From contig CP086569.2 in NCBI GenBank assembly GCA_009914755.4, positions 11,904,001 to 11,968,000 on the forward strand: a DNA stretch of 64,000 nt. The letters run 5' to 3'. The notes under the pieces were generated by a model that saw only the letters and a list, made by a program, of their open reading frames with translations, had not been told where the DNA came from and made no database searches. The position numbers and the translations under genes were made by a program. This stretch comes from the human T2T-CHM13v2.0 reference genome, Homo sapiens. Below, in pieces: positions 1 to 64,000 of the stretch (positions are counted from its first letter, which is position 1; each line of letters begins with the position of its first letter).

Positions 1-273
1 AGGAATGGAATGGAATGGAGTGGACTCAAAAGGAATGGACTCGAAAGGAATGGAGTCCAACCAAATTGAATGAAATGGATTGGAGTCGAACAGAATGGAA
101 TGGAATGGAATGAACTCGACTGGAGTAGAGAGGAATGTAAAGGAATAGAATGGAATGTAATCAAATGGATTGCAAGTGAATGGAATCAAAAATAATAGAA
201 AGGAATGGAGTGTAAAGGGATCATATTGAATATAATGGAATGGAATGGAATTTAATGGAATGGAGTTGAAGGA
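1..273 (+). repeat. 3' tail of an upstream 5.5-kb HOR copy (its 1.38-kb-like terminal subunit); truncated by the window edge.
   Basis: Positions 1-273 align with the ends of later 5.5-kb copies (e.g. 5590-5865, 11150-11423: '...ggaatggagtggactcaaaaggaatggactcgaaaggaatggagtccaaccaaattgaat...'). The phase marker ATGGACAGGAATGTAATGGACTCCAATGG begins at 274. Confidence 0.7.
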
Positions 274-5865: not shown

Positions 5866-8800
5866 ATGGACAGGAATGTAATGGACTCCAATGGAATGGA
5901 ATGTATCAAAATGGATTTGAACAGATTGGAATCGAACGGAATGGAATGCAATGGAATGGAATGGACTCGAATGGAGAAGAGACAAATGGAATGGAAACGA
6001 ATTCAATGGAATTGAAAAGAATAGGATGGAATGGCGTGTAATGGTAAGATACTAAATGGAATGGAATTGAATGGAATGGAATGGACCCAAATGTAATGCT
6101 CTCGAAAGGAATATACTCAAATAGAATGGAATCGAAAGGAAAGGTCTCAAATGGAATTTATTCAATACAATGGAATCGAATGGAATGCAATAGAATGGAA
6201 TGGAATCGAATGTAATGGAATCAAATAGAATGGACCAGAATGGAATGGACTGCCATAGAACGGACTGCAGTGTAATGGATTGAATTCTAATTCATTCAAA
6301 TGGAATGGAATTGAATGGAATGGAATCCAATGGAATGGATAGGATTGTACTGCAATGGAATAGCATGGAATGCAACGGAGTGGAATGGAGTTGAATGAAG
6401 TGGAATGGAATCGATTGGAATGGAATCAAATGGAATGGACGGGAATGGAATGGACTGGAAGAGAACAGACTCGAATATCATGGATTGCAATGTAATTGAT
6501 TCAAATGGAATGGAATCGAATGGAATGTAATAAAATTGAAGGGATTGGAGTTCAATGCAATGGAATTGAATGGAATGCAAAGGAAAGGAAAGGCACGGAG
6601 TGAAATCGAGTGTAATGGAATCGAATGGAATGAAATCGAATGGAATGGACTCAAAAGAAATGGACGAGGGACAAAACGGAATCGAACTGATTGGAATCGA
6701 ATGGAACGGAATGGAATGGAATGGACTCCATTGGATGGGAGTAGAACGGATTGGAATGAAATGGAATGGAAAGGAATAGAATGGAATGGAAAGGAAGGGA
6801 AGGTAACGGAAAGATATCGAACGGATTGGAAAGGAATGGAATGGACGCTAATGGAATGGATTGGAATTCAACAGAAACGAATGGAATGGACTGGAGTGAA
6901 ATGGAGTCGAATGTAATTGACTGGAGAGGAATGGACTCGAAAGGAATGGACTCGAATAGAATGGACTGGAATGGATTGTACTCGAATTGAGTGGAAAGGA
7001 ATAAAATGGATTCCACCAGATTGGAATGGAACAGAATGTAATGGAATGGAATGGAATGCAATGGAATGGCTCGAATGGAATGGAGTCGAATGCAATGGAA
7101 GAGAAAGGAAAGGAATTGAATGGAATTGAAAGTAATAGAATTAAAAGGAGTGCAAAGGAAAGATATCGAATGGAATGGATCGAAAAGAAATAGAATGGAA
7201 TGGACATGAATGGAATGGAATAGAATGGAATAGACTGGCGTGCAATGAAAACGAATGGAATGGAAACAAATGGAATGGAATGGAAAGGAATGGAGTAGAA
7301 TAAATACTATGGAATGGAATGGAATGGAATGGAATGGAATGGAATGGAGGCGAAAGGAAAAGAATGGATTGGAATGTCAACGAATGGAAAGATATGGAAT
7401 GGAAAGGAATGGATACGAATGGAATGGAATAGAAAGGAATGGAAAGGTAAAGAATGGAATGGAATCGGACAGAATGGAATGCAATGTAATGGAGTCGAAT
7501 GGAAAATAATCGAGTAGAATGATATCGAATGGAATGGAATTTAATGTAATGGAATGGAATGGAATGGACTCGAATGGCATGTACTCAAATGGATTAGAAT
7601 AGAATGGAATGGAACTAAACGTAATGAACTCGAATGGAATGGACACAAATAGAATGGAAGAGAAAGAAATGGTATTGAATGGAATTTATTCGAATAGAAT
7701 GGAATTCAATGGAATGCAACAGTGTGGCATGGAATCAAATGGAATGGAATCGAATGGAATGGACCCGAGTGGAATGGACTCACATAGAACAGCCTCGAAT
7801 ATAATGGATGACAATGTATTAGATTCGAAAGGACTGAAATCGAATGGAATGTAATCAAATAGAACGGAATTGAATGCATGGAATGGCATAGAAAGTAATG
7901 CAATGGAATGGAATAGACTGGAATGGAATGGAATCGGATGGAATGTAATGAAATGTTATGGAAGGAATGCTATGGAATGGAATGGAATGGAATACAATGG
8001 GACGGTGTATAATGGAGTGCAATGGATTTCAGTGGAATGTAGTCAAAAGGAATGAAATAGAATGGAATTCAATATAATGGAATGGCACCCAATGGCAAGG
8101 AATGGAGCGGACTCCAATGGAAAAGACATGAAAGGAATATAATATAATGGAATGGCATTGAACGAAATGGAATGCAATGGAGTTAAAAGGTAAAATATCG
8201 AAGGGGAAAGAATTGAATGGACTCGAAAGGAATATAATGGAATGGAATGGACTCGAATGGAATGTACTAGGGTTGAATGGAATCGAAAGGAATGGAAAAC
8301 AATGGAAAGGAAAGGAAGGGAATTGAAAGGAAAGGAATGGAATGGAATCGGATGGAACAGAATTGAATGGAATGGAAACTAAAGGAATAGAATAGAAAGG
8401 AATGGCATTGAATGGAATGGAAATGAATGGAATCAGATGGAACAGAAAGGAATGGAATAGAATCGAATGGAATGGCATCGAATGGATTGGAATGGAATGT
8501 AATGGAATGGAATGGAAAGGAATGGAATGGACTCGAATGGAATGTACTCAAATGGAATAGAATAGAATGGAATGGAAGTAAATATAATGGACTCGAGTGG
8601 AATGGATTGGAAGAAATTGGAATTGAATGTATTGGATTCGAATGGAAAGGAATGGAATGGAATGGAATGGAATGGAATGGAATGGAAAGCAATGGAATGG
8701 ATTCGAATGGAATGGAACGAATTGGATTGTAATTGAATGGAGTCGAAAACAGTAGAAAGAAAAGAAGTTTAATCGAATGATATCGAATGGAATTGAATGG

Positions 8801-11423
8801 AATGTACGCGAATGGAATGGACTGGAATGGAATGGAATGGAATGACATGTAATGGAATCGAAAGGAATGGAATCGAATGAAATGGAATTGAATGGAATAG
8901 AAAGGAATAGAATGGAATGGAGTTTAATGGAAAGATATTAAAAGTAATGGAATGGAATTGAGTGGACACAAATGGAAAGGAATGGAATGGAAAGGACTCG
9001 AATGAAATGGACCGCATTAGAATGGACTCGAATGGAACGGATTGGTGTGGAATGGTCTCGAATGGATTGGAAACGAATGGAATGGAAAAGAATAGAATGG
9101 AATGTAATCAAATGGAACGAAATGGAATGGAATGGATTCAACTGGAACAGAATTGAATGGAGTGGAATTGAATGGAATGGAATGCAATCGAATGGAATGG
9201 ACACGAATCGAATAGAATGAAATGATATGGCATAGAATGGAATGGAATGGAATGGAATGGAATGGAATGGAATGGAATGGCATGGAATGGAATGGAATGG
9301 CATGGAATGAAATGGATTGGAATGGGATGGGCCCAAAAGTAATGGACTAAAATAAAAGGGACTCAAATAGAATGAATTGTAAAGAAACGTTCTCGAATGT
9401 AATTTATTCGAATAGAATGATATTGAATGGAATGCAATAGTATGGAATGGTATCGAATAGAATGGAATGGAATGGAACTTAATGGAGTGCATTTGAACGG
9501 ACTCAAATGCAATAAATGGCAATATAATTGATTCAAATGGAATGGAATCGAATAGAATGTAAACAAATGGAATGGAAGGCAATGCAATGGAAAGGAATCG
9601 AATGAAATGGAATAAATGGGATGGAATCGAATGGAGAGGACACGAATATAATGGAATGTCAAGGAAAGGTCTCGAATCGAATTTATTCCAATAGAATGGA
9701 ATCGAATGGAATGCAATACTATTGAATCAAATCGAATGGAATGGAATTGAATGGAATGGACAGGAATGGAATGAACTGGAAGTGAATAGACAAGAACATA
9801 ATATATTGCAATGTAATTTATTCAAATGGAATGGAATGCAATAGAATGGAATGGACGCGATTGCAATGGACTGGAGTTGAATGGACTGAAATGGAATTTA
9901 AACGAATGTAATGGAATGGAACGGAAAGCAAAGGAATCTACCGGAATGGAATCGAACGGAACAGAAAGGAATGGAATGGAGTGGAATGGACTCGAATGGA
10001 ATGTATTCGAATGTAATGGACCGGAAAGGAATGGAATCCAATGGAATGGAATTGAATGGAATCAAAAGGAATAGAAAGGAATAGAGTGTAATTGAATGAT
10101 ATCGAATGGAAGGGAATGGAATGAAGTCGAATGGAATGCACTGGAATGGAATGGACTCAATCAGAACGGACTGGAGAGGAATGTACACAAATGGAATGGA
10201 AACGAATGGAATGGAATGAAATGGAATGGAATGCAATGGAATTGAAAGGAACGGAATCAAAAGGAATGGAATGGAATGGATTGGAATAGAATGGATTCAA
10301 ATAAAATAGAATCGATTGCAATGGTATTGAATGGAAGGGACTTGAATGGAATGGAAAGCAAAGGAAGATATTGGAATCGAATGGCATCGAATGAAATGGA
10401 ATGGAACGGAATGGAACGGACCCGAATGGAATGGAATGGACTCAAATGTAATGGACTCGAATGGAATCGACTGAAATATAATAGACTCGAAAGGAATGGC
10501 CTCGAGCGGAATTTATTTGAATAGAATGGAATGAAATGGAATACAATAGTATGGAATGGAATCGAATGGAATGGAATCGAATGGAATGTAATCAAAGGGA
10601 ATGCAACGGAATTCAATATAATGGAGTAGAATGGAATGCATTGGAAAGGAGCAGAGTGGAATCGAGTGGATTGGAATCGAGTGGAATGGAATCAAAGGGA
10701 ACAAAATCAAATTGAATGGACTTGAATGGAATTGAGTCGAAAGGAATTGACTCGAAAGGAATGGACTGGAACAAAAAGGAATCAAATGGACAGGAATGGA
10801 ATGGAATGGACTCGAATGGAATGGAGTCAAATGCAAACGCATCGAATGGAATGGATTCAAATGGAATGCAATTGAATGGAATAGAAAGGAAGAGAATGGA
10901 ATTGAGAGTAATGGAAAGATATCGATTGGAATGAAATGGAATGGAAAGGAATTGAATGGAAAGGAAAGGACTCGAAAGAAATGGGTTGGAAAGGAATGGT
11001 CACCAATGGAATGGACTGGAGTGGAATGGAATCGAATGGAATGAAAAGAATGGAACGGAATGGAACGGAAAAGAATAGAATGTTATGGAATCCGATTGGA
11101 CAGAATGGAATGGAATGCAGTTTCATGAAATGGAGTCGAATAGAGTGGCATGAAAAGGAATGGAATGGAGTGGACTCAAAAGGAATGGACTCGAAAGGAA
11201 TGGAGCCGAACCAAATTGAATCAAATGGATTGGAGTCGAACAGAATGGAATGGAATGGAATGAACTCGACTGGAGTAGAGAGGAATGAAAAGGAATAGAA
11301 TGGAATGTAATCAAATGGATTGCAAGTGAATGGAATCAAAAATAATAGAAAGGAATGGAGTGTAAAAGGATGATATTTAATTAAATGGAATGGAAAGGAA
11401 TTTAATGGAATGGAGTCGAAGGA
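5866..11423 (+). repeat. 5.5-kb HOR copy U2 (5558 bp). It directly precedes the first 1.378-kb array and shares variants with U8 and U3.
   Basis: Marker at 5866 and 11424. Landmark 'gaattctaattcattc' at 6282-6297. Shared with U8: 'atcgaatggaatggatcgaaaagaaatagaatggaatggacatgaatgg' at ~7160 and at ~52780. Confidence 0.8.
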
Positions 11424-12776
11424 ATGGACAGGAATGTAATGGACTCCAATGGAATGGAATGGATCAAAATGAATTTGAACAGATTGGAATCGAACGGAAT
11501 GGAATGCAATGAAATGGAATGGACTCGATCAGAACGGACTGGAGAGGAATGTACACAAATGGAATGGAAACAAAAGGAATGGAATGAAATGGAATTGAAA
11601 GGAACGGAATCAAATGGAATGGAATGGAATGGATTGGAATAGAATGGATTCAAATAAAATAGAATCGATTGCAATGGTATTGAATGGAAGGGACTTGAAT
11701 GGAATGGAAAGCAATGGAAGATATTGGAATAGAATGGCATCGAATGAAATGGAATGGAACGGAATGGAACGGACCGGAATGGAATGGAATGGACTCAAAT
11801 GTAATGGACTCGAATGGAATCGACTGAAATATAATAGACTCGAAAGGAATGGCCTCGAGCGGAATTTATTTGAATAGAATGGAATCATATGGAATACAAT
11901 AGTAGGGAATGGAATCGAATGGAATGTAATCGAATGGAATGTAATCAAATGGAATGGAACGGAATTCAATATAATGGAGTAGAATGGAATGCATTGGAAA
12001 GGAGCAGAGTGGAATCGAGTGGATTGGAATCGAGTGGAATGGAATCAAAGGGATCGAAATCGAATTGAATGGACTTGAATGGAATTGAGTCGAAAGGAAT
12101 TGACTCGAAAGGAATGGACTGGAACAAAAAGGAATCAAATGGACAGGAATGGAATGGAATGGACTCGAATGGAATGGAGTCAAATGCAAACGCATCGAAT
12201 GGAATGGATTCAAATGGAATGCAATTGAATGGAATAGAAAGGAAGAGAATGGAATTGAGAGTAATGGAAAGATATCGATTGGAATGAAATGGAATGGAAA
12301 GGAATTGAATGGAATGGAATGGACTCGAAAGAAATGGATTGGAATGGAATGGTCTCCAAAGGAATGGACTGGAGTGGAATGGAATCGAATGGAAAGAAAA
12401 GAATGGAACGGAATGGAACGGAAAGGAATAGAATGTTATGGAATCCGATTGGACAGAATGGAATGGAATGCAGTTTCATGAAATGGAGTCGAATAGAGTG
12501 GCATCAAAAGGAATGGAATGGAGTGGACTCAAAAGGAATGGACTCGAAAGGAATGGAGTCGAACCAAATTGAATCAAATGGATTGGAGTCGAACAGAATG
12601 GAATGGAATGGAATGAAGTCGACTGGAGTAGAGAGGAATGAAAAGGAATAGAATGGAATGTAATCAAATGGATTGCAAGTGAATGGAATCAAAAATAATA
12701 GAAAGGAATGGAGTGTAAAGGGATGATATTGAATTAAATGGAATGGAATGGAATTTAATGGAATAGAGCCGAAGGA
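11424..12776 (+). repeat. 1.378-kb subunit copy c1 (1353 bp; ~25-bp internal deletion).
   Basis: Reads '...aaatggaatggaaacaaaaggaatggaatgaaatggaattgaaaggaacgg' where other copies have '...ggaaacgaatggaatggaatgaaatggaatggaatgcaatggaattgaaaggaacgg'. Shares 'aatcatatggaatacaatagtagggaatgg' with c3. Confidence 0.75.
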
Positions 12777-14154
12777 ATGGACAGGAATGTAATGGACTGT
12801 AATGGAATGGAATGGATCAAAATGGATTTGAACAGATTGGAATCGAACGGAATGAAATGCAATGAAATGGAATGGACTCGATCAGAAAGGACAGGAGAGG
12901 GATGTACACAAATGGAATGGAAACGAAAGGAATGGAATGAAATGGAATGGAATGCAATGTAATTGAAAGGAACGGAATCAAATTGAACGGAATGGAATGG
13001 AATGGAATGGATTGGAATAGAATGGATTCAAATAAAATAGAATCGATTGCAATGGTATTGAATGGAAAGGACTTGAATGGAATGGAAAGCAATGGAAGAT
13101 ATTGGAATCGAATGGCATCGAATGAAAGGGAATGGAACGGAATGGAACGGAGCGGAATGCAACGGAATGGACTCAAATGTAATGGACTCGAATGGAATCG
13201 ACTGAAATATAATAGACTCGAAAGGAATGGCCTCGAGCGGAATTTATTTGAATAGAATGGAATCAAATGGAATACAATAGTATGGAATGGAATCGAATGG
13301 AATGGAATCGAATGGAATGTAATCAAATGGAAGGGAACAGAATTCAATATAATTTAGTAGAATGGAATGCATTGGAAAGGAGCAGAGTGGAATCGAGTGG
13401 ATTGGAATCGAGTGGAATGGAATCAAAGGGAACGAAATCGAATTGAATGGACTTGAATGGAATTGAGTCGAAAGGAATTGACTCGAAAGGAATGGACTGG
13501 AACAAATAGGAATCAAATGGACAGGAATGGAATGGAATGGACTCGAATGGAATGGAGTCAAATGCAAACGCATCGAATGGAATGGATTCAAATGGAATGC
13601 AATTGAATGGAATAGAAAGGAAAAGAATGGAATTGAGAGTAATGGAAAGATATCGATTGGAATGAAATGGAATGGAAAGGAATTGATTGGAAAGGAAAGG
13701 ACTCGAAAGAAATGGGTTGGAATGGAATGGTTTCCAATGGAATGGACAGGAGTGGAATGGAATCGAATGGAATGAAAAGAATGGAACGGAATGGAACGGA
13801 AAGGAATAGAATGTTATGGAATCCGATTGGACAGAATGGAATGGAATGCAGTTTCATGAAATGGAGTCGAATAGAGTGGCATCAAAAGGAATGGAATGGA
13901 GTGGACTCAAAAGGAATGGACTCGAATGGAATGGAGTCGAACCAAATTGAATCAAATGGATTGGAGTCGAACAGAATGGAATGGAATGGAATGAAGTCGA
14001 CTGGAGTAGAGAGGAATGAAAAGGAATAGAATGGAATGTAATCAAATGGATTGCAAGTGAATGGAATCAAAAATAATAGAAAGGAATGGAGTGTAAAAGG
14101 ATGATATTTAATTATATGGAATGGAATGGAATTTAATGGAATGGAGTCGAAGGA
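12777..14154 (+). repeat. 1.378-kb subunit copy c2 (variant type beta; sister of c6).
   Basis: Shares with c6: 'cagaaaggacaggagagggatg', 'gcaatgtaattg', 'caaattgaacgg', 'gaaaggacttg', 'gaaagggaatgg'. Confidence 0.75.
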
Positions 14155-15527
14155 ATGGACAGGAATGTAATGGACTCCAATGGAATGGAATGGATCAAAA
14201 TGGACTTGAACAGATTGGAATCGAACGGAATGGAATGCAATGAAATAGAATGGACTCGATCAGAACGGACTGGAGAGGAATGTACACAAATGGAATGGAA
14301 ACGAATGGAATGGAATGAAATGGAATGGAAGGCAATGGAATTGAAAGGAACGGAATCAAATGGAATGGAATGGAATGGAATGGATTGGAATAGAATGGAT
14401 TCAAATAAAATAGAATCGATTGCAAAGGTATTGAATGGAAGGGACTTGAATGGAATGGAAAGCAATGGAAGATATTGGAATCGAATGGCATCGAATGAAA
14501 TGGAATGCAACGGAATGGAACGGACCCGAATGGAATGGAATGGACTCAAATGTAATGGACTCGAATGGAATCGACTGAAATATAATAGACTCGAAAGGAA
14601 TGGCCTCGAGCGGAATTTATTTGAAAAGAATGGAATCATATGGAATACAATAGTAGGGAATGGAATCGAATGGAATGGAATCGAATGGAATGCAATCAAA
14701 TGGAATGGAACGGAATTCAATGTAATGGAGTAGAATGGAATGCATTGGAAAGGAGCAGAGTGGAATCGAGTGGATTGGAATCGAGTGGAATGGAATCAAA
14801 GGGAACGAAATCGAATTGAATGGACTTGAATGGAATTGAGTCGAAAGGAATTGACTCGAAAGGAATGGACTGGAACAAAAAGGAATCAAATGGACAGGAA
14901 TGGAATGGAATGGACTCGAATGGAATGGAGTCAAATGCAAACGCATCGAATGGAATGGATTCAAATGGAATGCAATTGAATGGAATAGAAAGGAAGAGAA
15001 TGGAATTGAGAGTAATGGAAAGATATCGATTGGAATGAAATGGAATGGAAAGGAATTGAATGGAATGGAATGGACTCGAAAGAAATGGATTGGAATGGAA
15101 TGGTCTCCAATGGAATGGACTGGAGTGGAATGGAATCGAATGGAAAGAAAAGAATGGAACGGAATGGAGCGGAAAGGAATAGAATGTTATGGAATCCGAT
15201 TGGACAGAATGGAATGGAATGCAGTTTCATGAAATGGAGTCGAATAGAGTGGCATCAAAAGGAATGGAATGGAGTGGACTCAAAAGGAATGGACTCGAAA
15301 GGAATGGAGTTGAACCAAATTGAATCAAATGGATTGGAGTCGAACAGAATGGAATGGAATTGAATGAACTCGACTGGAGGGGAGAGGAATGAAAAGGAAT
15401 AGAATGGAATGTAATCAAATGGATTGCAAGTGAATGGAATCAAAAATAATAGAAAGGAATGGAGTGTAAAGGGATGATATTGAATTAAATGGAATGGAAT
15501 GGAATTTAATGGAATGGAGTCGAAGGA
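14155..15527 (+). repeat. 1.378-kb subunit copy c3 (variant type alpha; sister of c8).
   Basis: Shares with c8: 'caaaatggacttgaacag', 'gcaatgaaatagaatggactcg', 'ggaaggcaatggaattg'. Confidence 0.75.
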
Positions 15528-16905
15528 ATGGACAGGAATGTAATGGACTCCAATGGAATGGAATGGATCAAAATGGATTTGAACAGATTGGAATGGACCG
15601 GAATGGAATGCTATGAAATGGAATGGACTCGATCAGAACGGTCTGGAGAGGAATGTACATAAATGGAATGGAAACGAATGGAATGGAATGAAATGGAATG
15701 GAATGCAATGGAATTGAAAGGAACGGAATCAAATGGAACGGAATGGAATGGAATGGAATGGATTGGAATAGAATGGATTCAAATAAAATAGAATCGATTG
15801 CAATGGTATTGAATGGAAGGGACTTGAATGGAATGGAAAGCAATGGAAGATATTGGAATAGAATGGCATCGAATGAAATGGAATGGAACGGAATGGAACG
15901 GACCGGAATGGAATGGAATAGACTCAAATGTAATGGACTCGAATGGAATCGACTGAAATATAATAGACTCGAAAGGAATGGCCTCGAGCGGAATTTATTT
16001 GAATAGAATGGAATCAAATGGAATACAATAGTATGGAATGGAATCGAATGGAATGGAATCGAATGGAATGTAATCAAATGGAATGGAACAGAATTCAATA
16101 TAATGGAGTAGAATGGAATGCATTGGAAAGGAGCAGAGTGGAATCGAGTGGATTGGAATCGAGTGAAATGGAATCAAAGGGAACGAAATCGAATTGAATG
16201 GACTTGAATGGAATTGAGTCGAAAGGAATTGACTCGAAAGGAATGGACTGGAACAAAAAGGAATCAAATGGACAGGAATGGAATGGAATGGACTCGAATG
16301 GAATGGAGTCAAATGCAAACGCATCGAATGGAATGGATTCAAATGGAATGCAATTGAATGGAATAGAAAGGAAGAGAATGGAATTGAGAGTAATGGAAAG
16401 ATATCGATTGGAATGAAATGGAATGGAAAGGAATTGAATGGAAAGGAAAGGACTCGAAAGAAATGGGTTGGAATGGAATGGTCTCCAATGGAATGGACTG
16501 GAGTGGAATGGAATCGAATGGAATGAAAAGAATGGAACGGAATGGAACGTAAAGGAATAGAATGTTATGGAATCCGATTGGTCAGAATGGAATGGAATGC
16601 AGTTTCATGAAATGGAGTCGAATATAGTGGCATCAAAAGGAATGGAATGGAGTGGACTCAAAAGGAATGGACTCGAAAGGAATGGAGTCGAACCAAATTG
16701 AATCAAAGAGATTGGAGTCGAACAGAATGGAATGGAATGGAATGAACTCGACTGGAGTAGAGAGGAATGAAAAGGAATAGAATGGAATGTAATCAAATGG
16801 ATTGCAAGTGAATTGAATCAAAAATAATAGAAAGGAATGGAGTGTAAAAGGATGATATTTAATTAAATGGAATGGAAAGGAATTTAATGGAATGGAGTCG
16901 AAGGA
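15528..16905 (+). repeat. 1.378-kb subunit copy c4 (variant type gamma; sister of c7).
   Basis: Shares with c7: 'ttggaatggaccggaatggaatgctatgaaatggaatggactcgatcagaacggtctggagaggaatgtacataaatgg'. Confidence 0.75.
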
Positions 16906-18283
16906 ATGGACAGGAATGTAATGGACTCCAATGGAATGGAATGGATCAAAATGAATTTGAACAGATTGGAATCGAACGGAATGGAATGCAATGAAATGGA
17001 ATGGACTCGATCAGAACGGACTGGAGAGGAATGTACACAAATGGAATGGAAACGAATGTAATGGAATGAAATGGAATGGAATGCAATGGAATTGAAAGGA
17101 ACGGAATCAAATGGAATGGAATGGAATGGAATGGAATGGATTGGAATAGAATGGATTCAAATAAAATAGAATCGATTGCAATGGTATTGAATGGAAGGGA
17201 CTTGAATGGAATGGAAAGCAATGGAAGATATTGGAATCGAATGGCATCGAATGAAATGGAATGGAACGGAATAGAACGGACTGGAATGGAATGGAATGGA
17301 CTCAAATGTAATGGACTCGAATGGAATCGACTGAAATACAATAGACTCGAAAGGAATGGCCTCGAGCGGAATTTATTTGAATAGAATGGAATCAAATGGA
17401 ATACAATAGTATGGAATGGAATCGAATGGAATGGAATCGAATGGAATGTAATCAAATGGAATGGAACGGAATTCAATATAATGGAGTACAATGGAATGCA
17501 TTGGAAAGGAGCAGAGTGGAATCGAGTGGATTGCAATCGAGTGGAATGGAATCAAAGGGAATGAAATCGAATTGAATGGACTTGAATGGAATTGAGTCGA
17601 AAGGAATTGACTCGAAAGGAATGGACTGGAACAAAAAGGAATCAAATGGACAGGAATGGAATGGAATGGACTCGAATGGAATGGAGTCAAATGCAAACGC
17701 ATCGAATGGAATGGATTCAAATGGAGTGCAATTAAATGGAATAGAAAGGAAGAGAATGGAATTGAGAGTAATGGAAAGATATCGATTGGAATGAAATGGA
17801 ATGGAAAGGAATTGAATGGAAATGAATGGACTCGAAAGAAATGGATTGGAATGGAATGGTCTCCAATGGAATGGACTGGAGTGGAATGGAATCGAATGGA
17901 AAGAGTAGAATGGAACGGATTGGAACGGAAAGGAATAGAATGTTATGGAATCCGATTGGACAGAATGGAATGGAATGCAGTTTCATGAAATGGAGTCGAA
18001 TAGAGTGGCATCAAAAGGAATGGAATGGAGTGGACTCAAAAGGAATGGACTCGAATGGAATGGAGTCGAACCAAATTGAATCAAATGGATTGGAGTCGAA
18101 CAGAATGGAATGGAATGGAATGAAGTCGACTGGAGTAGAGAGGAATGAAAAGGAATAGAATGGAATGTAATCAAATGGATTGCAAGTGAATGGAATCAAA
18201 AATAATAGAAAGGAATGGAGTGTAAAGGGATGATATTGAATTAAATGGAATGGAATGGAATTTAATGGAATGGAGCCGAAGGA
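16906..18283 (+). repeat. 1.378-kb subunit copy c5.
   Basis: Marker at 16906 and 18284. Private variants (e.g. 'ggaattgaatggaaatgaatggactcg'). Confidence 0.7.
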
Positions 18284-19661
18284 ATGGACAGGAATGTAAT
18301 GGACTCTAATGGAATGCAATGGATCAAAATGGATTTGAACAGATTGGAATCGAACGGAATGGAATGCAATGAAATGGAATGGACTCGATCAGAAAGGACA
18401 GGAGAGGGATGTACACAAATGGAATGGAAACGAAAGGAATGGAATGAAATGGAATGGAATGCAATGTAATTGAAAGGAACGGAATCAAATTGAACGGAAT
18501 GGAATGGAATGGAATGGATTGGAATAGAATGGATTCAAATAAAATTGAATCGATTGCAATGGTATTGATTGGAAAGGACTTGAATGGAATGGAAAGCAAT
18601 GGAAGATATTGGAATCGAATGGCATCGAATGAAAGGGAATGGAACGGAATGGAATGGAGCGTAATGGATTGGAATGGACTCAAATGTAATGGACTCGAAT
18701 GGAATCGACTGAAATATAATAGACTCGAAAGGAATGGCCTCGAGCGGAATTTATTTGAATAGAATGGAATCAAATGGAATACAATAGTATGGAATGGAAT
18801 CAAATGGAATGGAATCGAATGGAATATAATCAAATGGAAGGGAACAGAATTCAATATAATTTAGTAGAATGGAATGCATTGGAAAGGAGCAGAGTGGAAT
18901 CGAGTGGATTGGAATCGAGTGGAATGGAATCAAAGGGAACGAAATCGAATTGAATGGACTTGAATGGAATTGAGTCGAAAGGAATTGACTCGAAAGGAAT
19001 GGACTGGAACAAAAAGGAATCAAATGGACAGGAATGGAATGGAATGGACTCGAATGGAATGGAGTCAAATGCAAACGCATCGAATGGAATGGATTCAAAT
19101 GGAATGCAATTGAATGGAATAGAAAGGAAGAGAATGGAATTGAGAGTAATGGAAAGATATCGATTGGAATGAAATGGAATGGAAAGGAATTGAATGGAAT
19201 GGAATGGACTCGACAGAAATGGATTGGAATGGAATGGTCTCCAATGGAATGGACTGGAGTGGAATGGAATCGAATGGAAAGAAAAGAATGGAATGGAATG
19301 TAGCGGAAAGGAATAGAATGTTATGGATTCCGATTGGACAGAATGGAATGGAATGCAGTTTCATGAAATGGAGTCGAATAGAGTGGCATCAAAAGGATTG
19401 GAATGGAGTGGACTCAAAAGGAATGGACTCGAAAGGAATGGAGTTGAACCAAATTGAATCAAATGGATTGGAGTTGAACAGAATGGAATGGAATTGAATG
19501 AACTCGACTGGAGTGGAGAGGAATGAAAAGGAATAGAATGGAATGTAATCAAATGGATTGCAAGTGAATGGAATCAAAAACAATAGAAAGGAATGGAGTG
19601 TAAAGGGATGATATTGAATTAAATGGAATGGAATGGAATTTAATGGAATGGAGTCGAAGGA
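18284..19661 (+). repeat. 1.378-kb subunit copy c6 (type beta; sister of c2).
   Basis: See c2. The 176-aa minus-strand ORF 18324..18854 is near-identical to 12817..13347. Confidence 0.75.
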
Positions 19662-21039
19662 ATGGACAGGAATGTAATGGACTCCAATGGAATGGAATGG
19701 ATCAAAATGGATTTGAACAGATTGGAATGGACCGGAATGGAATGCTATGAAATGGAATGGACTCGATCAGAACGGTCTGGAGAGGAATGTACATAAATGG
19801 AATGGAAACGAATGGAATGGAATGAAATGGAATGGAATGCAATGGAATTGAAAGGAACGGAATCAAATGGAACGGAATGGAATGGAATGGAATGGATTGG
19901 AATAGAATGGATTCAAATAAAATAGAATCGATTGCAATGGTATTGAATGGAAGGGACTTGAATGGAATGGAAAGCAATGGAAGATATTGGAATAGAATGG
20001 CATCGAATGAAATGGAATGGAACGGAATGGAACGGACCGGAATGGAATGGAATAGACTCAAATGTAATGGACTCGAATGGAATCGACTGAAATATAATAG
20101 ACTCGAAAGGAATGGCCTCGAGCGGAATTTATTTGAATAGAATGGAATCAAATGGAATACAATAGTATGGAATGGAATCGAATGGAATGGAATCGAATGG
20201 AATGTAATCAAATGGAATGGAACGGAATTCAATATAATGGAGTAGAATGGAATGCATTGGAAAGGAGCAGAGTGGAATCGAGTGGATTGGAATCGAGTGG
20301 AATGGAATCAAAGGGAACGAAATCGAATTGAATGGACTTGAATGGAATTGAGTCGAAAGGAATTGACTCGAAAGGAATGGACTGGAACAAAAACGAATCA
20401 AATGGACAGGAATGGAATGGAATGGACTCGAATGGAATGGAGTCAAATGCAAACGCATCGAATGGAATGGATTCAAATGGAATGCAATTGAACGGAATAG
20501 AAAGGAAGAGAATGGAATTGAGAGTAATGGAAAGATATCGATTGGAATGAAATGGAATGGAAAGGAATTGAATGGAAAGGAAAGGACTCGAAAGAAATGG
20601 GTTGGAATGGAATGGTTTCCAATGGAATGGACTGGAGTGGAGTGGAATCGAATGGAATGAAAAGAATGGAACGGAATGGAACGGAAAGGAATAGAATGTT
20701 ATGGAATCCGATAGGACAGAATGGAATGGAATGCAGTTTCATGAAATGGAGTCGAATAGAGTGGCATGAAAAGGAATGGAATGGAGTGGACTCAAAAGGA
20801 TTGGACTCGAAAGGAAAGAAGTCGAACCAAATTGAATCAAATGGATTGGAGTCGAACAGGATGGAATGGAATGGAATGAAGTCGACTGGAGTAGAGAGGA
20901 ATGAAAAGGAATAGAATGGAATGTAATCAAATGGATTGCAAGTGAATGGAATCAAAAATAATAGAAAGGAATGGAGTGTAAAAGGATGATATTTAATTAT
21001 ATGGAATGGAATGGAATTTAATGGAATGGAGTCGAAGGA
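19662..21039 (+). repeat. 1.378-kb subunit copy c7 (type gamma; sister of c4).
   Basis: See c4. The 176-aa ORF 19702..20232 is identical to 15568..16098. Confidence 0.75.
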
Positions 21040-22412
21040 ATGGACAGGAATGTAATGGACTCCAATGGAATGGAATGGATCAAAATGGACTTGAACAGAT
21101 TGGAATCGAACGGAATGGAATGCAATGAAATAGAATGGACTCGATCAGAACGGACTGGAGAGGAATGTACACAAATGGAATGGAAACGAATGGAATGGAA
21201 TGAAATGGAATGGAAGGCAATGGAATTGAAAGGAACGGAATCAAATGGAATGGAATGGAATGGAATGGATTGGAATAGAATGGATTCAAATAAAATAGAA
21301 TCGATTGCAATGTTATTGAATGGAAGGGACTTGAATGGAATGGAAAGCAATGGAAGATATTGGAATCGAATGGCATCGAATGAAATGGAATGGAACGGAA
21401 TGGAACGGACCCGAATGGAATGGAATGGACTCAAATGTAATGGACTCGAATGGAATCGACTGAAATATAATATACTCGAAAGGAATGGCCTCGAGCGGAA
21501 TTTATTTGAATAGAATTTAATCAAATGGAATACAATAGTATGGAATGGAATCGAATGGAATGGAATCGAATGGAATGGAATCAAATGGAATGGAACGGAA
21601 TTCAATATAATGGAGTAGAATGGAATGCATTGGAAAGGAGCAGAGTGGAATCGAGTGGATTGGAATCGAGTGGAATGGAATCAAAGGGAACGAAATCGAA
21701 TTGAATGGACTTGAATGGAATTGAGTCGAAAGGAATTGACTCGAAAGGAATGGACTGGAACAAAAAGGAATCAAATGGACAGGAATGGAATGGAATGGAC
21801 TCGAATGGAATGTAGTCAAATGCAAACGCATCGAATGGAATGGATTCAAATGGAATGCAATTGAATGGAATAGAAAGGAAGATAATGGAATTGCGAGTAA
21901 TGGAAAGATATCGATTGGAATGAAATGGAATGGAAAGGAATTGAATGGAAAGGAATGGACTCGAAAGAAATGGGTTGGAATGGAATGGTCTCCAATGGAA
22001 TGGACTGAAGTGGAATGGAATCGAATGGAATGAAAAGAATGGAACGGAATGGAACGGAAAGGAATAGAATGTTATGGAATCCGATTGGACAGAATGGAAT
22101 GGAATGCAGTTTCATGAAATGGAGTCAAATAGAGTGGCATCAAAAGGAATGGAATGGAGTGGACTCAAGAGGAATGGACTCGAAAGGAATGGAGGCGAAC
22201 CAAATTGAATCAAATGGATTGGAGTCGAACAGAATGGAATGGAATGGAATGAACTCGAGTGGAGTAGAGAGGAATGAAAAGGAATAGAATGGAATGTAAT
22301 CAAATGGATTGCAAGTGAATGGAATCAAAAATAATAGAAAGGAATGGAGTGTAAAGGGATGATATTGAATTAAATGGAATGGAACGGAATTTAATGGAAT
22401 GTAGTCGAAGGA
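21040..22412 (+). repeat. 1.378-kb subunit copy c8 (type alpha; sister of c3).
   Basis: See c3. The 195-aa ORF 21018..21605 is near-identical to 14133..14720. Confidence 0.75.
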
Positions 22413-23790
22413 ATGGACAGGAATGTAATGGACTCCAATGGAATGGAATAGATCAAAATGGATTTGAACAGATTGGAATCGAACGGAATGGAATGCAATG
22501 AAAAGGAATGGACTCGATCAGAACGGACTGGAGAGGAATGTACACAAATTGAATGGAAACGAATGGAATGGAATGAAATGGAATGGAATGCAATGGAATT
22601 GAAAGGAACGGAATCAAATGGAACGGAATGGAATGGAATGGAATGGATTGGAATAGAATGGATTCAAATAAAATAGAATCGATTGCAATGGTATTGAATG
22701 GAAGGGACTTGAATGGAATGGAAAGCTATGGAAGATATTGGAATCGAATGGCATCGAATGAAATGGAATGGAACGGAATGGAACGGACCGGAATGGAATG
22801 GAATGGACTCAAATGTAATGGACTCGAATGGAATCGACTGAAATATAATAGACTCGAAAGGAATGGCCTCGAGCGGAATTTATTTGAATAGAATGGAATC
22901 AAATGGAATACAATAGTATGGAATGGAATCGAATGGAATGGAATCGAATGGAATGTAATCAAATGGAATGGAACGGAATTCAATATAATGGAGTAGAATG
23001 GAATGCATTGGAAAGGAGCAGAGTGGAATCGAGTGGATTGGAATCGAGTGGAATGGAATCAAAGGGAACGAAATCGAATTGAATGGACTTGAATGGAATT
23101 GAGTCGAAAGGAATTGACTCGAAAGGAATGAACTGCAACAAAAAGGAATCAAATGGACAGGAATGGAATGGAATGGACTCGAATGGAATGGAGTCAAATG
23201 CAAACGCATCGAATGGAATGGATTCAAAGGGAATGCAATTGAATGGAATAGAAAGTAAGAGAATGGAATTGAGAGTAATGGAAAGATATCGATTGGAATG
23301 AAATTGAATGGAAAGTAATTGAATGGAAAGGAAAGGACTCGAAAGAAATGGGTTGGAATGGAATGGTCTCCAACGGAATGGACTGGAGTGGAATGGAATC
23401 GAATGGAATGAAAAGAATGGAACGGAATGGAACGGAAAAGAATAGAATGTTATGGAATCCGATTGGACAGAATGGAATGGAATGCAGTTTCATGAAATGG
23501 AGTCGAATAGAGTGGCATCAAAAGGAATGGAATGGAGTGGTCTCAAATCGAATGGACTCGAAAGGAATGGAGCCGAACCAAATTGAATCAAATGGATTGG
23601 AGTCGAACAGAATGGAATGGAATGGAATGAACTCGACTGGAGTAGAGAGGAATGAAAAGGAATAGAATGGAATGTAATCAAATGGATTGCAAGTGAATGG
23701 AATCAAAAATAATAGAAAGGAATGGAGTGTAAAGGGATGATATGGAATAAAATGGAATGGAATGGAATTTAATGGATTGGAGTCGAAGGA
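22413..23790 (+). repeat. 1.378-kb subunit copy c9. Last copy before the array returns to the 5.5-kb HOR.
   Basis: Marker at 22413 and 23791. Downstream of ~23875 the sequence follows the 5.5-kb HOR ('gcaatggaatggaatggactcgaatggagaagagacaaatgg') instead of the 1.378-kb unit ('gcaatgaaatggaatggactcgatcagaacggactggagagg'). Confidence 0.7.
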
Positions 23791-26700
23791 ATGGACAGGA
23801 ATGTAATGGACTCCAATGGAATGGAATGGATCAAAATGGATTTGAACAGATTGGAATCGAACGGAATGGAATGCAATGGAATGGAATGGACTCGAATGGA
23901 GAAGAGACAAATGGAATGGAAACGAATTCAATGGAATTGAAAAGAATAGAATGGAATGGTGTGTAATGGTAAGATACTAAATGGAATGGAATTGAATGGA
24001 ATGTAGTGGAATGGACCCAAATGTAGTGCACTCGAAAGGAATATACTCAAATAGAATGGAATCGAAAGGAAAGGTCTCAAATGGAATTTATTCAATACAA
24101 TGGAATCGAATGGAATGCAATAGAATGGAAAGGAATCGAATGTAATGGAATCAAATAGAATGGACCAGAATGGAATGGACTGCCATAGAACGGACTGCAG
24201 TGTAATGGATTGAATTCTAATTCATTCAAATGGAATGGAATTGAATGGAATGGAATCCAATGGAATGGATAGGATTGTACTGGAATGGAATAGCATGGAA
24301 TGCAACGGAGTGGAATGGAGTTGAATGAATTGGAATGGAATCGATTGGAATGGAATCAAATGGAATGGACGGGAATGGAATGGACTGGAATAGAACAGAC
24401 TCGAATATAATGGATTGCAATGTAATTGATTCAAATGGAATGGAATCGAATGGAATGTAATAAAATTGAAGGGATTGGAGTTCAATGCAATGGAATAGAA
24501 TGGAATGCAAAGGAAAGGAAAGGCACGGAGTGAAATCGAGTGTAATGGAATCGAATGGAATGAAATCGAATGGAATGGACACAAAAGAAATGGACGTGGG
24601 ACAAAACGGAATCGAACTGATTGGAATCGAATGGAACGGAATGGAATGGAATGGTCTCCATTGGATGGGAGTAGAACGGATTGGAATGAAATGGAATGGA
24701 AAGGAATAGAATGGAATGGAAAGGAATGGAAGGTAACGGAAAGATATCGAACGGATTGGAAAGGAATGGAATGGACGCTAATGGAATGGAATGGAATTCA
24801 ACAGAAACGAATGGAATGGACTGGAGTGAAATGGAGTCGAATGTAATTGACTGGAGAAGAATGAACTCGAAAGGAATGGACTCGAATAGAATGTACTGGA
24901 ATGGATTGTACTCGAATGGAGTGGAAAGGAATAAAATGGATTCCACCAGATTGGAATGAAATAGAATGTAATGGAATGGAATGGAATGCAATGGAATGGC
25001 TCGAATGGAATGGAGTCGAATGCAATGGAAGAGAAAGGAAAGGAATTGAATGGAATTGAAAGTAAGAGAAGTAAAAGGAGTGCAAAGGAAAGAAATGGAA
25101 TGGAATGGATCGAAAAGAAATAGAATGGAATGGACAGGAATGGAATGGAATAGAATGGAATAGACTGGCGTGCAATGAAAACGAATGGAATGGAAACGAA
25201 TGGAATGGAATGGAAAGGAATGGAGTAGAATAAATACTATGGAATGGAATGGAATGGAATGGAATGGAATGGAATGGAGGCGAAAGGAAAAGAATGGATT
25301 GGAATGTCACCGAATGGAAAGATATGGAATGGAAAGGAATGGATAGGAATGGAATGGAATAGAAAGGAACGGAAAGGTAAAGAATGGAATGGAAGCCGAC
25401 AGAATGGAATGCAATGTAATGGAGTCGAATGGAAAATAATCGAGTAGAATGATATCTAATGGAATGGAATTTAATGGAATGGAATGGAATGGAATGGACT
25501 CGAATGGCATGTACTCAAATGGATTAGAATAGAATGGAATGGAACTAAACGTAATGAACTCGAATGGAATGGACACAAATAGAATGGAAGAGAAAGAAAT
25601 GGTATTGAATGGAATTTATTCGAATAGAATGGAATTCAATGGAATGCAACAGTGTGGCATGGAATCAAATGGAATGGAATCGAATGGAATGGACCCGAAT
25701 GGAATGGACTCACATAGAACAGTCTCGAATGTAATGGATTACAATGTATTAGATTCGAAAGGACTGAAATCGAATGGAATGTAATCAAATAGAACGGAAT
25801 TGAATGCATGGAATGGCATAGAAAGTAATGCAATGGAATGGAATAGACTGGAATGGAATGGAATCGGATTGAATGTAATGAAATGTAATGGAAGGAATGC
25901 CATGGAATGGAATGGAATGGAATACAATGGGACGGTGTATAATGGAGTGCAATGGATTTCAGAGGAATGTAGCCAAAGGAATGAAATAGAATGGAATTCA
26001 ATATAATGGAATGGCATCCAATGGCAAGGAATGGAGTGGACTCCAATGGAAACGACATGAAAGGAATATAATATAATGGAATGGCATTGAAAGAAATGGA
26101 ATGCAATGGAGTTAAAAGGTAAAATATCGAATGGAAAAGAATTGAATGGACTCGAATGGAATATAATGGAATGGAATGGACTCGAATGGAATGTACTAGT
26201 GTTGAATGGAATCGAATGGAATGGAAAACAATGGAAAGGAAAGGAAGGGAATTGAAAGGAAAGGAATAGAATGGAATGGAATCGGATGGAACAGAATTGA
26301 ATGGAATGGAAACTAAAGGAATAGAATAGAAAGGAATGGCATTGAATGGAATAGAAATGAATGGAATCAGATGGAACAGAAAGGAATGGAATAGAATCGA
26401 ATGGAATGGCATCGAATGGATTGGAATGGAATGGAATGGAATGGAATGGAAAAGAATGGAATGGAGTCAAATGGAATGTACTCAAATGGAATAGAATAGA
26501 ATGGAATGGAAGTAAATATAATGGACTCGAGTGGAATGGATTGGAATAAATTGGAATTGAATGTATTGGATTTGAATGGAAAGGAATGGAATGGAATGGA
26601 ATGGAATGGAATGGATTCGAATGGAATGGAACGAATTGGAATGTAATTGAATGGAGTCGAAAACAGTAGAAAGAAAAGAAGTTTAATCGAATGATATCGA

Positions 26701-57004: not shown

Positions 57005-58366
57005 ATGGACAGGAATGTAATGGATTCCAATGGAATGGAATGGATCAAAATGGATTTGAACAGATTGGAATCAAACGGAATGGAATGCAATGAAATGGAA
57101 TGGACTCGATCAGAACGGACTGGAGAGGAATGTACACAAATGGAATGGAAACGAATGGAATGGAATGAAATGGAATGGAATGCAATGGAATTGAAAGGAA
57201 CGGAATCAAATGGAATGGAATGGATTGGAATAGAATGGATTCAAATAAAATAGAATCGATTGCAATGGTATTGAATGGAAGGGACTTGAATGGAATGGAA
57301 AGCAATGGAAGATATTGGAATCGAATGGCATCGAATGAAATGGAATGGAACGGAATGGAACGGACCCGAATGGATGGAATGGACTCAAATGTAATGGACT
57401 CGAATGGAATCGACTGAAATATAATAGACTCGAAAGGAATGGCCTCGAGCGGAATTTATTTGAATAGAATGGAATCAAATGGAATACAATAGTATGGAAT
57501 GGAATCGAAAGGAATGGAATCGAATGGAATGTAATCAAATGGAATGGAACAGAATTCAATATAATGGAGTAGAATGGAATGCATTGGAAAGGAGCAGAGT
57601 GGAATCGAGTGTATTGGAATCGACTGGAATGGAATCAAAGGGAACAAAATCAAATTGAATTGACTTGAATGGAATTGAGTCGAAAGGAATTGACTCGAAA
57701 GGAATGGACTGGAACAAAAAGGAATCAAATGGACAGGAATGGAATGGAATGGACTCGAATGGAATGGAGTCAAATGAAAACGCATCGAATGGAATGGATT
57801 CAAATGGAATGCAATTGAATGGAACAGAAAGGAAGAGAATGGAATTGAGAGTAATGCAAAGATATCGATTGGAATGAAATGGAATGGAAAGGAATTGAAT
57901 GGAAAGGAAAGGACTCGAAAGAAATGGATTGGAATGGAATGGTCTCCAATGGAATGGACTGGAGTGGAATGGAATCGAATGGAAAGAAAAGAATGGAACG
58001 GAATGGAATGGAAAGGAATAGAATGTTATGGAATCCGATTGGACAGAATGGAATGGAATGCAGTTTCATGAAAAAGAGTCGAATAGAGTGGCATCAATAG
58101 GAATGGAATGGAGTGGACTCAAAAGTAATGGACTCGAAAGGAATCGAGTCGAACCAAATTGAGTCAAATGCATTGGAGTCGAACAGAATGGAATGGAATG
58201 GAATGAACTCGACTGGAGTAGAGAGGAATGAAAAGGAATAGAATGGAATGTAATCAAATGGATTGCAAGTGAATGGAATCAAAAATAATAGAAAGGAATG
58301 GAGTGTAAAGGGATGATATTGAATTAAATGGAATGGAATGGAATTTAATGGAATGGAGTCGAAGGA
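57005..58366 (+). repeat. 1.378-kb subunit copy d1 (1362 bp; two small pentamer-scale deletions).
   Basis: 'caaatggaatggaatggattgg' has 2 GGAAT where other copies have 4. 'cggacccgaatggatggaatggactc' lacks 5 bp. Confidence 0.7.
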
Positions 58367-63862: not shown

Positions 63863-64000
63863 ATGGACAGGAATGTAATGGACTCCAATGGAATGGAATG
63901 GATCAAAATGGATTTGAACAGATTGGAATCGAACGGAATGGAATGCAATGAAATGGAATGGACTCGATCAGAACGGACTGGAGAGGAATGTACACAAATG
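63863..64000 (+). repeat. Partial 1.378-kb subunit copy d6, truncated by the window end.
   Basis: Begins with the marker ATGGACAGGAATGTAATGGACTCCAATGG and continues as the other copies do. Confidence 0.65.

What the first reader, a model, noticed from the sequence alone, without database searches (positions are those of the whole stretch)
12777..22412. Sister-copy pairs in non-colinear order within the first 1.378-kb array (gene-conversion / unequal-exchange mosaic)
Copies c2 and c6 share a long private haplotype (beta), c4 and c7 share another (gamma), and c3 and c8 a third (alpha). Spacings are 4, 3 and 5 units, so the order is beta-alpha-gamma ... beta-gamma-alpha, not a simple block duplication. 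Second halves of units sort differently. Type I ('gaatggaatggaatggactcgaaagaaatggattgg', 'aatcgaatggaaagaaaagaatgg') occurs in c1, c3, c5 and c6. Type II ('gaatggaaaggaaaggactcgaaagaaatgggttgg') occurs in c2, c4, c7, c8 and c9. Half-units therefore have been shuffled between copies.
Basis: seen in the sequence. Interest (0 to 1): 0.5.

Follow-up and report, generated by a model that had tools for sequence, protein, structure and literature searches.

The report
Off-register duplicates in a satellite array
A ten-copy 1.38-kb repeat nested in a human satellite 3 array (probably Y-linked) contains three pairs of recently copied blocks in scrambled order. This is the ordinary footprint of repeated unequal exchange, and the apparent "shuffling of half-units" comes only from where the unit boundary was drawn.

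Summary
The sequence observation is real. Copies c2/c6, c4/c7 and c3/c8 share private haplotypes in their first ~575 bp, at spacings of 4, 3 and 5 units. The second halves group differently (c1/c5, c2/c7, c3/c6; type I/II motifs as stated, allowing up to 2 private substitutions).

However, the second-half pairs are the first-half pairs moved back by one unit. Moving the unit start by 580-870 bp lowers incompatibility from 35% to 7.7%, and 35 of 39 informative sites then fit one tree. So about one-unit blocks were copied in a different register; halves were not shuffled.

The order D-A-B-C-D'-A'-C'-B' remains non-colinear. It needs at least 3 tandem-duplication or deletion events. There are two age layers (0.7% versus ~1.5% divergence).

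The window is (GGAAT)n-derived HSat3. It carries the Y-specific HSat3A3 diagnostic 24-mer, has a 5.5-kb nested repeat, and holds two local 1.378-kb sub-arrays. This is known satellite dynamics (unequal sister-chromatid exchange, possibly with conversion) and is of low novelty.

The parts
10061..23848 (+). First 1.378-kb sub-array (array c). It holds ten tandem copies, c0-c9, of a segment that occurs once per 5.5-kb repeat unit. c0 is the junction copy, and its first ~230 columns are of the single-copy type.
12782..22417 (+). Unit starts are 12782, 14160, 15533, 16911, 18289, 19667 and 21045.
14729..16482 (+). Tract T1, left copy (block C: second part of c3 plus first part of c4). It is 99.3% identical to 18863-20616, at a lag of 3 units (4134 bp).
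   Evidence: 1754 bp, 12 mismatches; exact run 15448-16089
18863..20616 (+). Tract T1, right copy (block C': second part of c6 plus first part of c7).
13688..14542 (+). Tract T2, left copy (block B: end of c2 plus start of c3). It matches 20573-21427 at a lag of 5 units. The core 13976-14425 is identical to 20861-21310.
20573..21427 (+). Tract T2, right copy (block B': end of c7 plus start of c8).
10710..13355 (+). Tract T3, left copy (blocks D-A: c0 column 660 to c2 column 574). It matches 16192-18862 at a lag of 4 units, with about 1.3-1.75% divergence and 15 shared derived sites for the A/A' pair.
16192..18862 (+). Tract T3, right copy (blocks D'-A').
11777..12413 (+). Tract T4. c1 columns 374-1010 resemble c3 (14528-15164) at a lag of 2 units (0.94% divergence; shared 485T, 502G, 912T). 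This is either the older two-unit periodicity or a conversion patch.
18863..19199 (+). Example in c6 of the zone with low diversity and no informative sites (unit columns 575-911). The resolvable switch points between donors can all lie in this zone. The same zone is at 13356-13692, 14729-15065, 16107-16443 and 20241-20577 in c2, c3, c4 and c7.
15533..15632 (+). Founder junction of the 1.378-kb unit, present in every copy. The first ~100 bp of the unit equal the sequence that follows the single-copy segment in the 5.5-kb repeat. A similar ~40-bp stretch occurs at both ends of the duplicated segment.
55647..63867 (+). Second 1.378-kb sub-array (d0-d5), cut off by the window end. It is the same derived unit type but carries none of the alpha, beta, gamma or type II alleles.
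1..64000 (-). The whole window is (CATTC)n-derived satellite when read on the minus strand. It has a 5.5-kb nested tandem repeat (periods 5520-5597). Each repeat consists of a 1.33-kb segment X plus a 4.15-4.2-kb remainder Y.

Best explanation
The region is a local expansion inside a human satellite 3 array. A 1.378-kb piece of the 5.5-kb nested repeat was amplified to ten tandem copies. The array was then remodelled several times by out-of-register homologous exchange between copies.

If the array is on the male-specific Y, as the HSat3A3 marker suggests, the exchange partners can only be sister chromatids or the same chromatid. Each event duplicated or deleted a whole number of units.

In that register the array reads D-A-B-C-D'-A'-C'-B'-E with three clean sister pairs.

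The shortest history that fits both the order and the divergence ranks is:
1. A 4-unit (5.5-kb) tandem duplication, giving D', A' and B' at about 1.4-1.6% divergence.
2. A younger 3-unit duplication.
3. A 2-unit deletion.

The net effect of steps 2 and 3 is one extra copy of C placed after A' (0.7% divergence). All of this sits on an older two-unit (type II - type I) alternation.

Shown: Inferred: the molecular mechanism, the exact order of events, and the chromosomal location.
For: - **Architecture.** The 1.378-kb array is nested in a 5.5-kb repeat. The founder junction has a similar ~40-bp stretch at both ends of the duplicated segment.
There are 642-bp and 450-bp exact runs. T1 is 1754 bp with 12 mismatches.
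- **Phase scan.** Incompatibility falls from 0.35 to 0.077.
- **Shifted-register tree.** (v1,v5) is supported by 15 sites, (v3,v6) by 13, (v2,v7) by 7 and the type II clade by 5. Only 4 sites are homoplasious.
- **Copying-model painting.** The second half of the array is built as lag 4, then lag 3, then lag 5.
- **Local origin.** All diagnostic alleles are derived and private to this array.
- **Minimum history.** At least 3 duplication or deletion events are needed. One of the minimal solutions (4-unit duplication, 3-unit duplication, 2-unit deletion) makes (v3,v6) the youngest pair.
- **Ages.** T1 is 0.70% diverged against T3 at 1.56% (Fisher p=0.016). T2 is 1.38%.
- **Type order.** The order II-I-II-I-II-I-I-II is what this history predicts.
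- **Possible older relative.** c9 columns 129-659 are closest to c7, as expected if E is an older relative of C and C'.
- **Subfamily.** The HSat3A3 24-mer occurs 19 times exactly, and no other subfamily 24-mer matches exactly (the 24-mers come from PMC4022460 Table 1).
- **Literature.** HSat nested repeats 'expand hyper-locally' (10.1101/2021.07.12.452052). Y satellite arrays show iterative tandem duplications consistent with unequal exchange, and sister-chromatid exchanges were seen in Yq12 (10.1101/2022.12.01.518724).
Against: - **History not unique.** Two other three-event histories exist (a two-unit duplication first, then a 4-unit duplication, then a one-unit deletion). A 4-unit duplication followed by two unit-length conversions gives the same order.
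- **Weak support for E.** E (v8) is only weakly closest to C: 31 mismatches, against 32 to D'. It shares no derived allele with C and C', and it carries 935G of type II.
- **Uneven divergence in T2.** T2 has a 450-bp core with no mismatches inside a tract that is 1.38% diverged overall, which hints at a later conversion patch.
- **Homoplasy and a lag-2 patch.** Four homoplasious sites and the c1/c3 lag-2 patch (T4) show that short non-reciprocal transfers or recurrent mutation also occurred.
- **Junction zone not demonstrated.** Placing junctions in the low-diversity zone is only compatible with the data. The switch intervals are 574-912 and 388-951.
Confidence: 0.75

Rival explanations
1. Left and right halves of the 1.378-kb units have independent histories because crossovers or conversions between copies recombined half-units, so individual units are true recombinants.
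For: c6 looks like c2 on the left and like c3 on the right.
Against: The conflict disappears when the unit boundary is moved. The right-half pairs are the left-half pairs offset by one unit. The shared tracts are continuous across the boundary. c6 is simply the junction between block A' and block C'.
Confidence: 0.07
2. Non-reciprocal copying without change in copy number. After a 4-unit duplication, positions 6 and 7 were overwritten by gene conversion, by synthesis-dependent repair, or by break-induced replication with template switching. The templates were units 3 and 2, possibly in one event that copied c3:575-c4:906 and then jumped back to c2:907-c3:~388.
For: T1 and T2 are adjacent and together span about 1.9 units (18863-21427). 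Their divergences are not significantly different (0.70% versus 1.38%, p=0.13). The 450-bp core of T2 has no mismatches. The number of units (9) equals that expected after a plain 4-unit duplication. Short patches such as T4 and four homoplasious sites show that some conversion-like transfer occurs.
Against: It needs two unit-length conversions that happen to swap neighbours, or an unusual double template switch. It explains the order no more economically than duplication plus deletion (3 events either way). It gives no reason why T2 resembles the older layer (1.38% versus T3 at 1.56%, p=0.87).
Confidence: 0.15
3. Excision of a two-unit circle (B-C) from the array and its re-integration by homologous recombination at another phase. 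This would give a circularly permuted C'-B' copy.
For: C'-B' is a circular permutation of B-C. The T1/T2 junction (column ~907-950) and the T1 start (column ~575) are in-register points, as homologous integration would require.
Against: There is no positive evidence beyond the order. After integration the recipient unit should resume as a lag-6 copy of c2 and c3, but c8's right half is not c2-like. T2 cannot be followed to column 574, as the model requires.
Confidence: 0.03
4. Assembly artefact: mis-joined or collapsed reads in a near-identical repeat produced a chimeric order of units.
For: Satellite arrays are hard to assemble. No reads are available here.
Against: Neighbouring units differ by 2-3%, well above long-read consensus error. 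The whole array is 13.7 kb, within the length of single long reads. The haplotype blocks are internally coherent, with clean in-register junctions.
Confidence: 0.03

Closest known systems
Nested tandem repeats (NTRs) of human satellites 2/3, as described in the T2T-CHM13 centromere study (Altemose et al., 10.1101/2021.07.12.452052)
   Same: A pentamer-derived satellite with multi-kilobase periods and no discrete monomers. [quoted passage not shown] Here a 5.5-kb NTR carries two local 1.378-kb sub-arrays.
   Different: I found no published description of this particular 5.5-kb/1.378-kb arrangement in the searchable library. The unit-by-unit genealogy worked out here is locus-specific detail.
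DYZ1 (HSat3A6) and DYZ2 blocks of Yq12 on the human Y (Rhie et al., 10.1101/2022.12.01.518724)
   Same: [quoted passage not shown] Sister-chromatid exchanges were observed directly.
   Different: DYZ1 has a ~3.6-kb unit and belongs to subfamily HSat3A6. This window carries the HSat3A3 marker instead and has 5.5-kb and 1.378-kb periods. The scale here is kilobases rather than megabases.
Smith (1976) model of repeat evolution by unequal crossover, and the layered or local expansions seen in alpha-satellite higher-order-repeat arrays
   Same: Out-of-register exchange creates blocks of sister units, multi-unit super-periods and non-colinear mosaics. Array edges are less homogenised: c0/c1 and d0/d1 keep features of the single-copy form.
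   Different: There are no discrete ~171-bp monomers. X and the rest of the 5.5-kb unit are only ~70% alike at every offset.
Minisatellite variant-repeat mosaics (MVR maps). Comparison from my own knowledge, not tested here.
   Same: Interspersion patterns of variant repeats reveal complex duplication and conversion histories within a tandem array.
   Different: Minisatellite units are 10-100 bp, and their germline events are often polar, conversion-like and inter-allelic. Here the units are 1.4 kb, and on the Y there is no allelic partner.

Membership tests
Human satellite 3 (HSat3) | Derived from a (CATTC)n / (GGAAT)n pentamer repeat | tested here: met
   TRF gives a GGAATGGAAT consensus across 2-63962. 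The five rotations of GGAAT are the top 5-mers. G exceeds C by a constant skew of about 0.58.
Human satellite 3 (HSat3) | Present in the human genome | tested here: met
   A conserved 29-mer of the unit hits 24 metagenome contigs, several labelled human gut or human skin. Their units are 97.5-98.4% identical to c4. This is indirect evidence (host contamination).
HSat3 subfamily A3 (Y-specific; Altemose 2014) | Subfamily-specific 24-mer CTTTACACTCCATTCCTTTCTATT | tested here: met
   19 exact hits on the minus strand, about one per X unit. The 13 other subfamily 24-mers have 0 exact hits (list from PMC4022460).
HSat3 subfamily A3 (Y-specific; Altemose 2014) | Location on the Y chromosome | not testable with these tools
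   No human reference assembly is searchable here. The location is inferred only from the published specificity of the 24-mer.
Human satellite 2 (HSat2) | HSat2 diagnostic 24-mers and the ATCATCGAATGGAATCGAATG-type 23/26-bp structure | tested here: not met
   0 hits even with 2 mismatches for the HSat2A1, HSat2A2 and HSat2B 24-mers. 0 hits for the HSat2 motif.
Nested tandem repeat (NTR) | A multi-kilobase tandem period built on a short-repeat background, without discrete monomers of similar length | tested here: met
   Periods are 5520-5597 bp and 1353-1378 bp. X versus Y is ~70% at any offset, so there is no monomer register.
Products of unequal (out-of-register) homologous exchange | Sister tracts at integer-unit lags with in-register junctions, and a change in copy number | tested here: met
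   The lags are exactly 3, 4 and 5 units. Tracts switch at homologous columns. Ten copies stand where the 5.5-kb unit has one. That copy number changed in the later events is inferred.
Gene-conversion mosaic (recombinant half-units) | Phylogenetic conflict between parts of a unit that persists whatever the unit register | tested here: not met
   Incompatibility falls from 0.35 to 0.077 on shifting the register. 35 of 39 sites then fit one tree. Only minor residual signal remains (4 homoplasious sites, PHI-like p=0.037).

The most novel reading that the evidence does not exclude
All resolvable exchange junctions in this array, and possibly in the satellite generally, fall in one ~340-bp stretch of the 1.378-kb unit (columns 575-911). 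Diversity there is 3-4 times lower than elsewhere. This would be a preferred exchange site in a Y-linked HSat3 repeat. The adjacent C'-B' swap may record a single multi-template repair event or the re-integration of an excised two-unit circle.
Probability: 0.12. Interest if true: 0.45.

Novelty: already known. Interest (0 to 1): 0.15.

Why it matters
It matters little as a discovery. Tandem satellite arrays are expected to evolve by unequal exchange and conversion, and the T2T studies already describe hyper-local expansions in HSat arrays and iterative duplications on the Y.

It is useful in three ways:
- **Method.** In tandem arrays the unit boundary is arbitrary. Recombination tests on units cut in one register can create apparent 'recombinant units', so a register scan should come before any GARD or four-gamete analysis.
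- **Worked example.** It gives a small, fully resolved case of at least 3 events in two age layers. This could be dated on the Y phylogeny using published Y assemblies.
- **Mechanism.** If the array is Y-linked, every event must be intrachromosomal, so it is a clean record of exchange between sister chromatids or within one chromatid.

Tried and rejected
- **Global autocorrelation** was too diluted by indels to show the structure. Distances between 24-mers worked.
- **A 45.6-kb super-repeat linking the two 1.378-kb arrays.** Rejected. The flanks of the two arrays are no closer (2.27%) than other 5.5-kb units.
- **The 5.5-kb unit as a tetramer of the 1.378-kb unit (4 x 1378 = 5512).** Rejected. 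X aligns to the rest of the unit at ~70% at every offset.
- **Positional orthology between c1-c3 and d1-d3.** The indel pattern suggests it, but substitution distances do not support it. Left open.
- **Search for the conserved 29-mer in genome contigs.** Nothing found.
- **Rfam scan of 9000-25000.** No hits.
- **ORFs.** They are translated pentamer repeats on both strands (MEWNG..., IPFHS...) and vary between copies. Not coding.
- **Literature search for the HSat3A3 or DYZ17 repeat period.** No period was stated in the searchable texts, so I could not confirm that the 5.5-kb unit is the published one.
- **A unique event history.** Not achievable. Several three-event histories remain.


Full report
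**What the window is.**
- The entire 64 kb is a (GGAAT)n-derived satellite. TRF reports one GGAATGGAAT array from 2 to 63962. GC is 0.36-0.39 with a constant G>C skew. The five rotations of GGAAT dominate the 5-mer spectrum.
- Distances between repeated 24-mers show two periodicities. A ~5.5-kb period (5520-5597 bp) covers most of the window. A 1.353-1.378-kb period occurs at ~10-23.8 kb and from ~55.6 kb to the window end.
- BLAST of one unit against the window shows that the 1.378-kb unit is a segment present once per 5.5-kb repeat. I call this segment X; it lies at 4561, 28028, 33553, 39093, 44623 and 50163. X is amplified to ten tandem copies at 10061-23848 (c0-c9) and to at least six copies at 55647-63867 (d0-d5).
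- The first ~100 bp of the amplified unit equal the sequence that follows X in the 5.5-kb repeat. A similar ~40-bp stretch lies at both ends of the duplicated segment. This is what a founding unequal exchange between short similar stretches would leave.
- X is only ~70% similar to the rest of the 5.5-kb unit at any offset. The 5.5-kb repeat is therefore a nested tandem repeat in the sense of Altemose et al. (10.1101/2021.07.12.452052), not a multimer of X.

**Which satellite.**
- Of the 14 subfamily-specific 24-mers in Table 1 of Altemose et al. 2014 (PMC4022460), only the HSat3A3 24-mer matches exactly. It occurs 19 times on the minus strand, about once per X copy.
- That paper describes HSat3A3 as Y-specific.
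- A conserved 29-mer of the unit is found in 24 metagenome contigs, several from human gut or skin samples. Their units are 97.5-98.4% identical to c4. This is consistent with human host DNA.
- The Y location itself could not be tested here.

**Checking the observation.**
- In a 22-sequence alignment (c0-c9, d0-d5, six single copies), c1-c9 have 160 variable columns, of which 47 are informative.
- In columns 1-574, c2+c6 share 14 private sites, c4+c7 share 7, and c3+c8 share 4 plus a 5-bp indel.
- In columns 912-1388 the groups are {c3,c6}, {c2,c7}, {c2,c4,c7}, {c1,c3,c5,c6} and {c1,c5}.
- The type I/II classification holds, but the quoted strings are exact in only some of the named copies. 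The others differ by 1-2 private substitutions.
- The four-gamete test gives 296 of 861 incompatible site pairs: 7% within the left half, 14% within the right half, and 63% between halves. Rm is 7, and a PHI-like permutation test gives p<1e-4.
- All the diagnostic alleles, including the type II set 917A/935G/1327A/1338T, are derived and private to this array. They are absent from array d, from the single copies, and from 35 unit fragments of the metagenome contigs.

**What it really is.**
- The right-half pairs (c1,c5), (c2,c7), (c3,c6) are the left-half pairs (c2,c6), (c3,c8), (c4,c7) moved back by one unit.
15448-16089 is identical to 19582-20223 (642 bp). 13976-14425 is identical to 20861-21310 (450 bp). 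The full lag-3 tract, 14729-16482 versus 18863-20616, has 12 mismatches in 1754 bp.
- I scanned the unit start position.
- In that register, unit v_i is the right half of c_i plus the left half of c_(i+1). There, 35 of 39 informative sites fit one tree: (v1,v5) 15 sites, (v3,v6) 13, (v2,v7) 7, and type II (v2,v4,v7[,v8]) 5. Four sites are homoplasious.
- Halves were therefore not shuffled.

**A copying-model (Viterbi) painting describes the second half of the array as three pieces.**

| Recipient | Donor | Lag (units) | Divergence |
|---|---|---|---|
| c4:660-c6:574 | c0:660-c2:574 | 4 | 1.3-1.75% |
| c6:575-c7:906 | c3:575-c4:906 | 3 | 0.70% |
| c7:907-c8:388 | c2:907-c3:388 | 5 | 1.38% |

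**History.**
- The order D-A-B-C-D'-A'-C'-B'-E is still non-colinear.
- An exhaustive unit-level search shows that it cannot be produced by one or two tandem-duplication or deletion events. Three events suffice.
- Among the minimal histories, one makes C/C' the youngest pair: a 4-unit duplication, then a 3-unit duplication, then a 2-unit deletion. This agrees with T1 (0.70%) being younger than T3 (1.56%, Fisher p=0.016), and with T2 (1.38%) being like T3.
- The same history reproduces the type order II-I-II-I-II-I-I-II.
- It predicts that E is an older relative of C. E is indeed nearest to C, and c9:129-659 is nearest to c7, but only weakly.
- The alternatives are a two-unit duplication first, or a 4-unit duplication followed by two conversions or one template-switching repair. 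These also need three steps and cannot be excluded.
- A lag-2 patch (c1:374-1010 versus c3) and four homoplasious sites show that short non-reciprocal transfers or recurrent mutation also occur.
- The resolvable switch intervals (574-912 and 388-951) all contain the zone at columns 575-911. This zone has no informative sites, and diversity in columns 581-812 is 3-4 times lower than elsewhere. That is compatible with exchange preferring the longest identical stretch, but it does not prove it.

**Mechanism and comparison.**
- Out-of-register homologous exchange in tandem arrays (Smith 1976, cited in PMC4022460) is the textbook process.
- The T2T studies report hyper-local NTR expansion in HSat arrays. 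They also report iterative tandem duplications and sister-chromatid exchanges in Y satellites.
- If the array is in the male-specific Y there is no homologue. The partners must then be sister chromatids or the same chromatid. This is an inference from the subfamily assignment.
- No coding or structured-RNA feature is present.

**Verdict.** The interpretation as an unequal-exchange mosaic is supported, but 'half-unit shuffling' is a register artefact. This is a known kind of feature and of low interest.

Noticed in passing
window 32121-41714 versus 43191-52784: These two stretches are at least 99.5% identical at a lag of 11070 bp, which is two 5.5-kb units. X copies h2=h4 and h3=h5 differ by 0-1 mismatches, and Y_d versus Y_f differ by 0.02%. 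This indicates a very recent ~11-kb tandem duplication inside the 5.5-kb array.
   Followed up: partly
window 55647-63867 (array d, cut off by the window end): A second 1.378-kb sub-array of the same derived unit type lies 45.6 kb downstream. Its copies d3-d5 differ from one another by only 17-19 sites. It carries none of the first array's private haplotypes. Its flanks are no closer to those of the first array than any other 5.5-kb unit is.
   Followed up: partly
window 10061-12781 (c0, c1) and 55647-58371 (d0, d1): The edge copies keep features of the single-copy form. The left ~230 columns of c0 and d0 are identical to the 5.5-kb-unit type. c1 and d1 keep the short (GGAAT)n tract at columns 199-215, with further deletions in multiples of 5 bp (pentamer slippage). 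This fits the idea that array edges are less homogenised.
   Followed up: partly
unit columns 581-812, for example window 16113-16344 in c4: Diversity among c1-c9 is 3-4 times lower here: 10 singletons and no informative site in 232 columns, Fisher p~0.001. The cause is unknown. It may be preferred exchange and homogenisation, or chance.
   Followed up: partly
unit columns 63-128 in c4 and c7 (window ~15595-15660 and ~19729-19794): Five of the gamma-haplotype substitutions cluster within 66 bp. One of them (63G) restores the single-copy (5.5-kb-unit) state. This looks like a small conversion patch or a clustered mutation rather than independent substitutions.
   Followed up: no
window 18289-19666 (c6) and 12782-14159 (c2): c6 and c2 have unusually long private branches: 42-58 and 37-47 mismatches to other copies, against about 23-41 for most other copies. 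Private changes are concentrated in columns 232-463.
   Followed up: no
loci L001-L024 (metagenome contigs): Human gut and skin metagenome assemblies contain contigs of this satellite, some with two units 1373-1378 bp apart. This is host-DNA contamination of the kind the T2T-Y paper describes for HSat3.
   Followed up: partly
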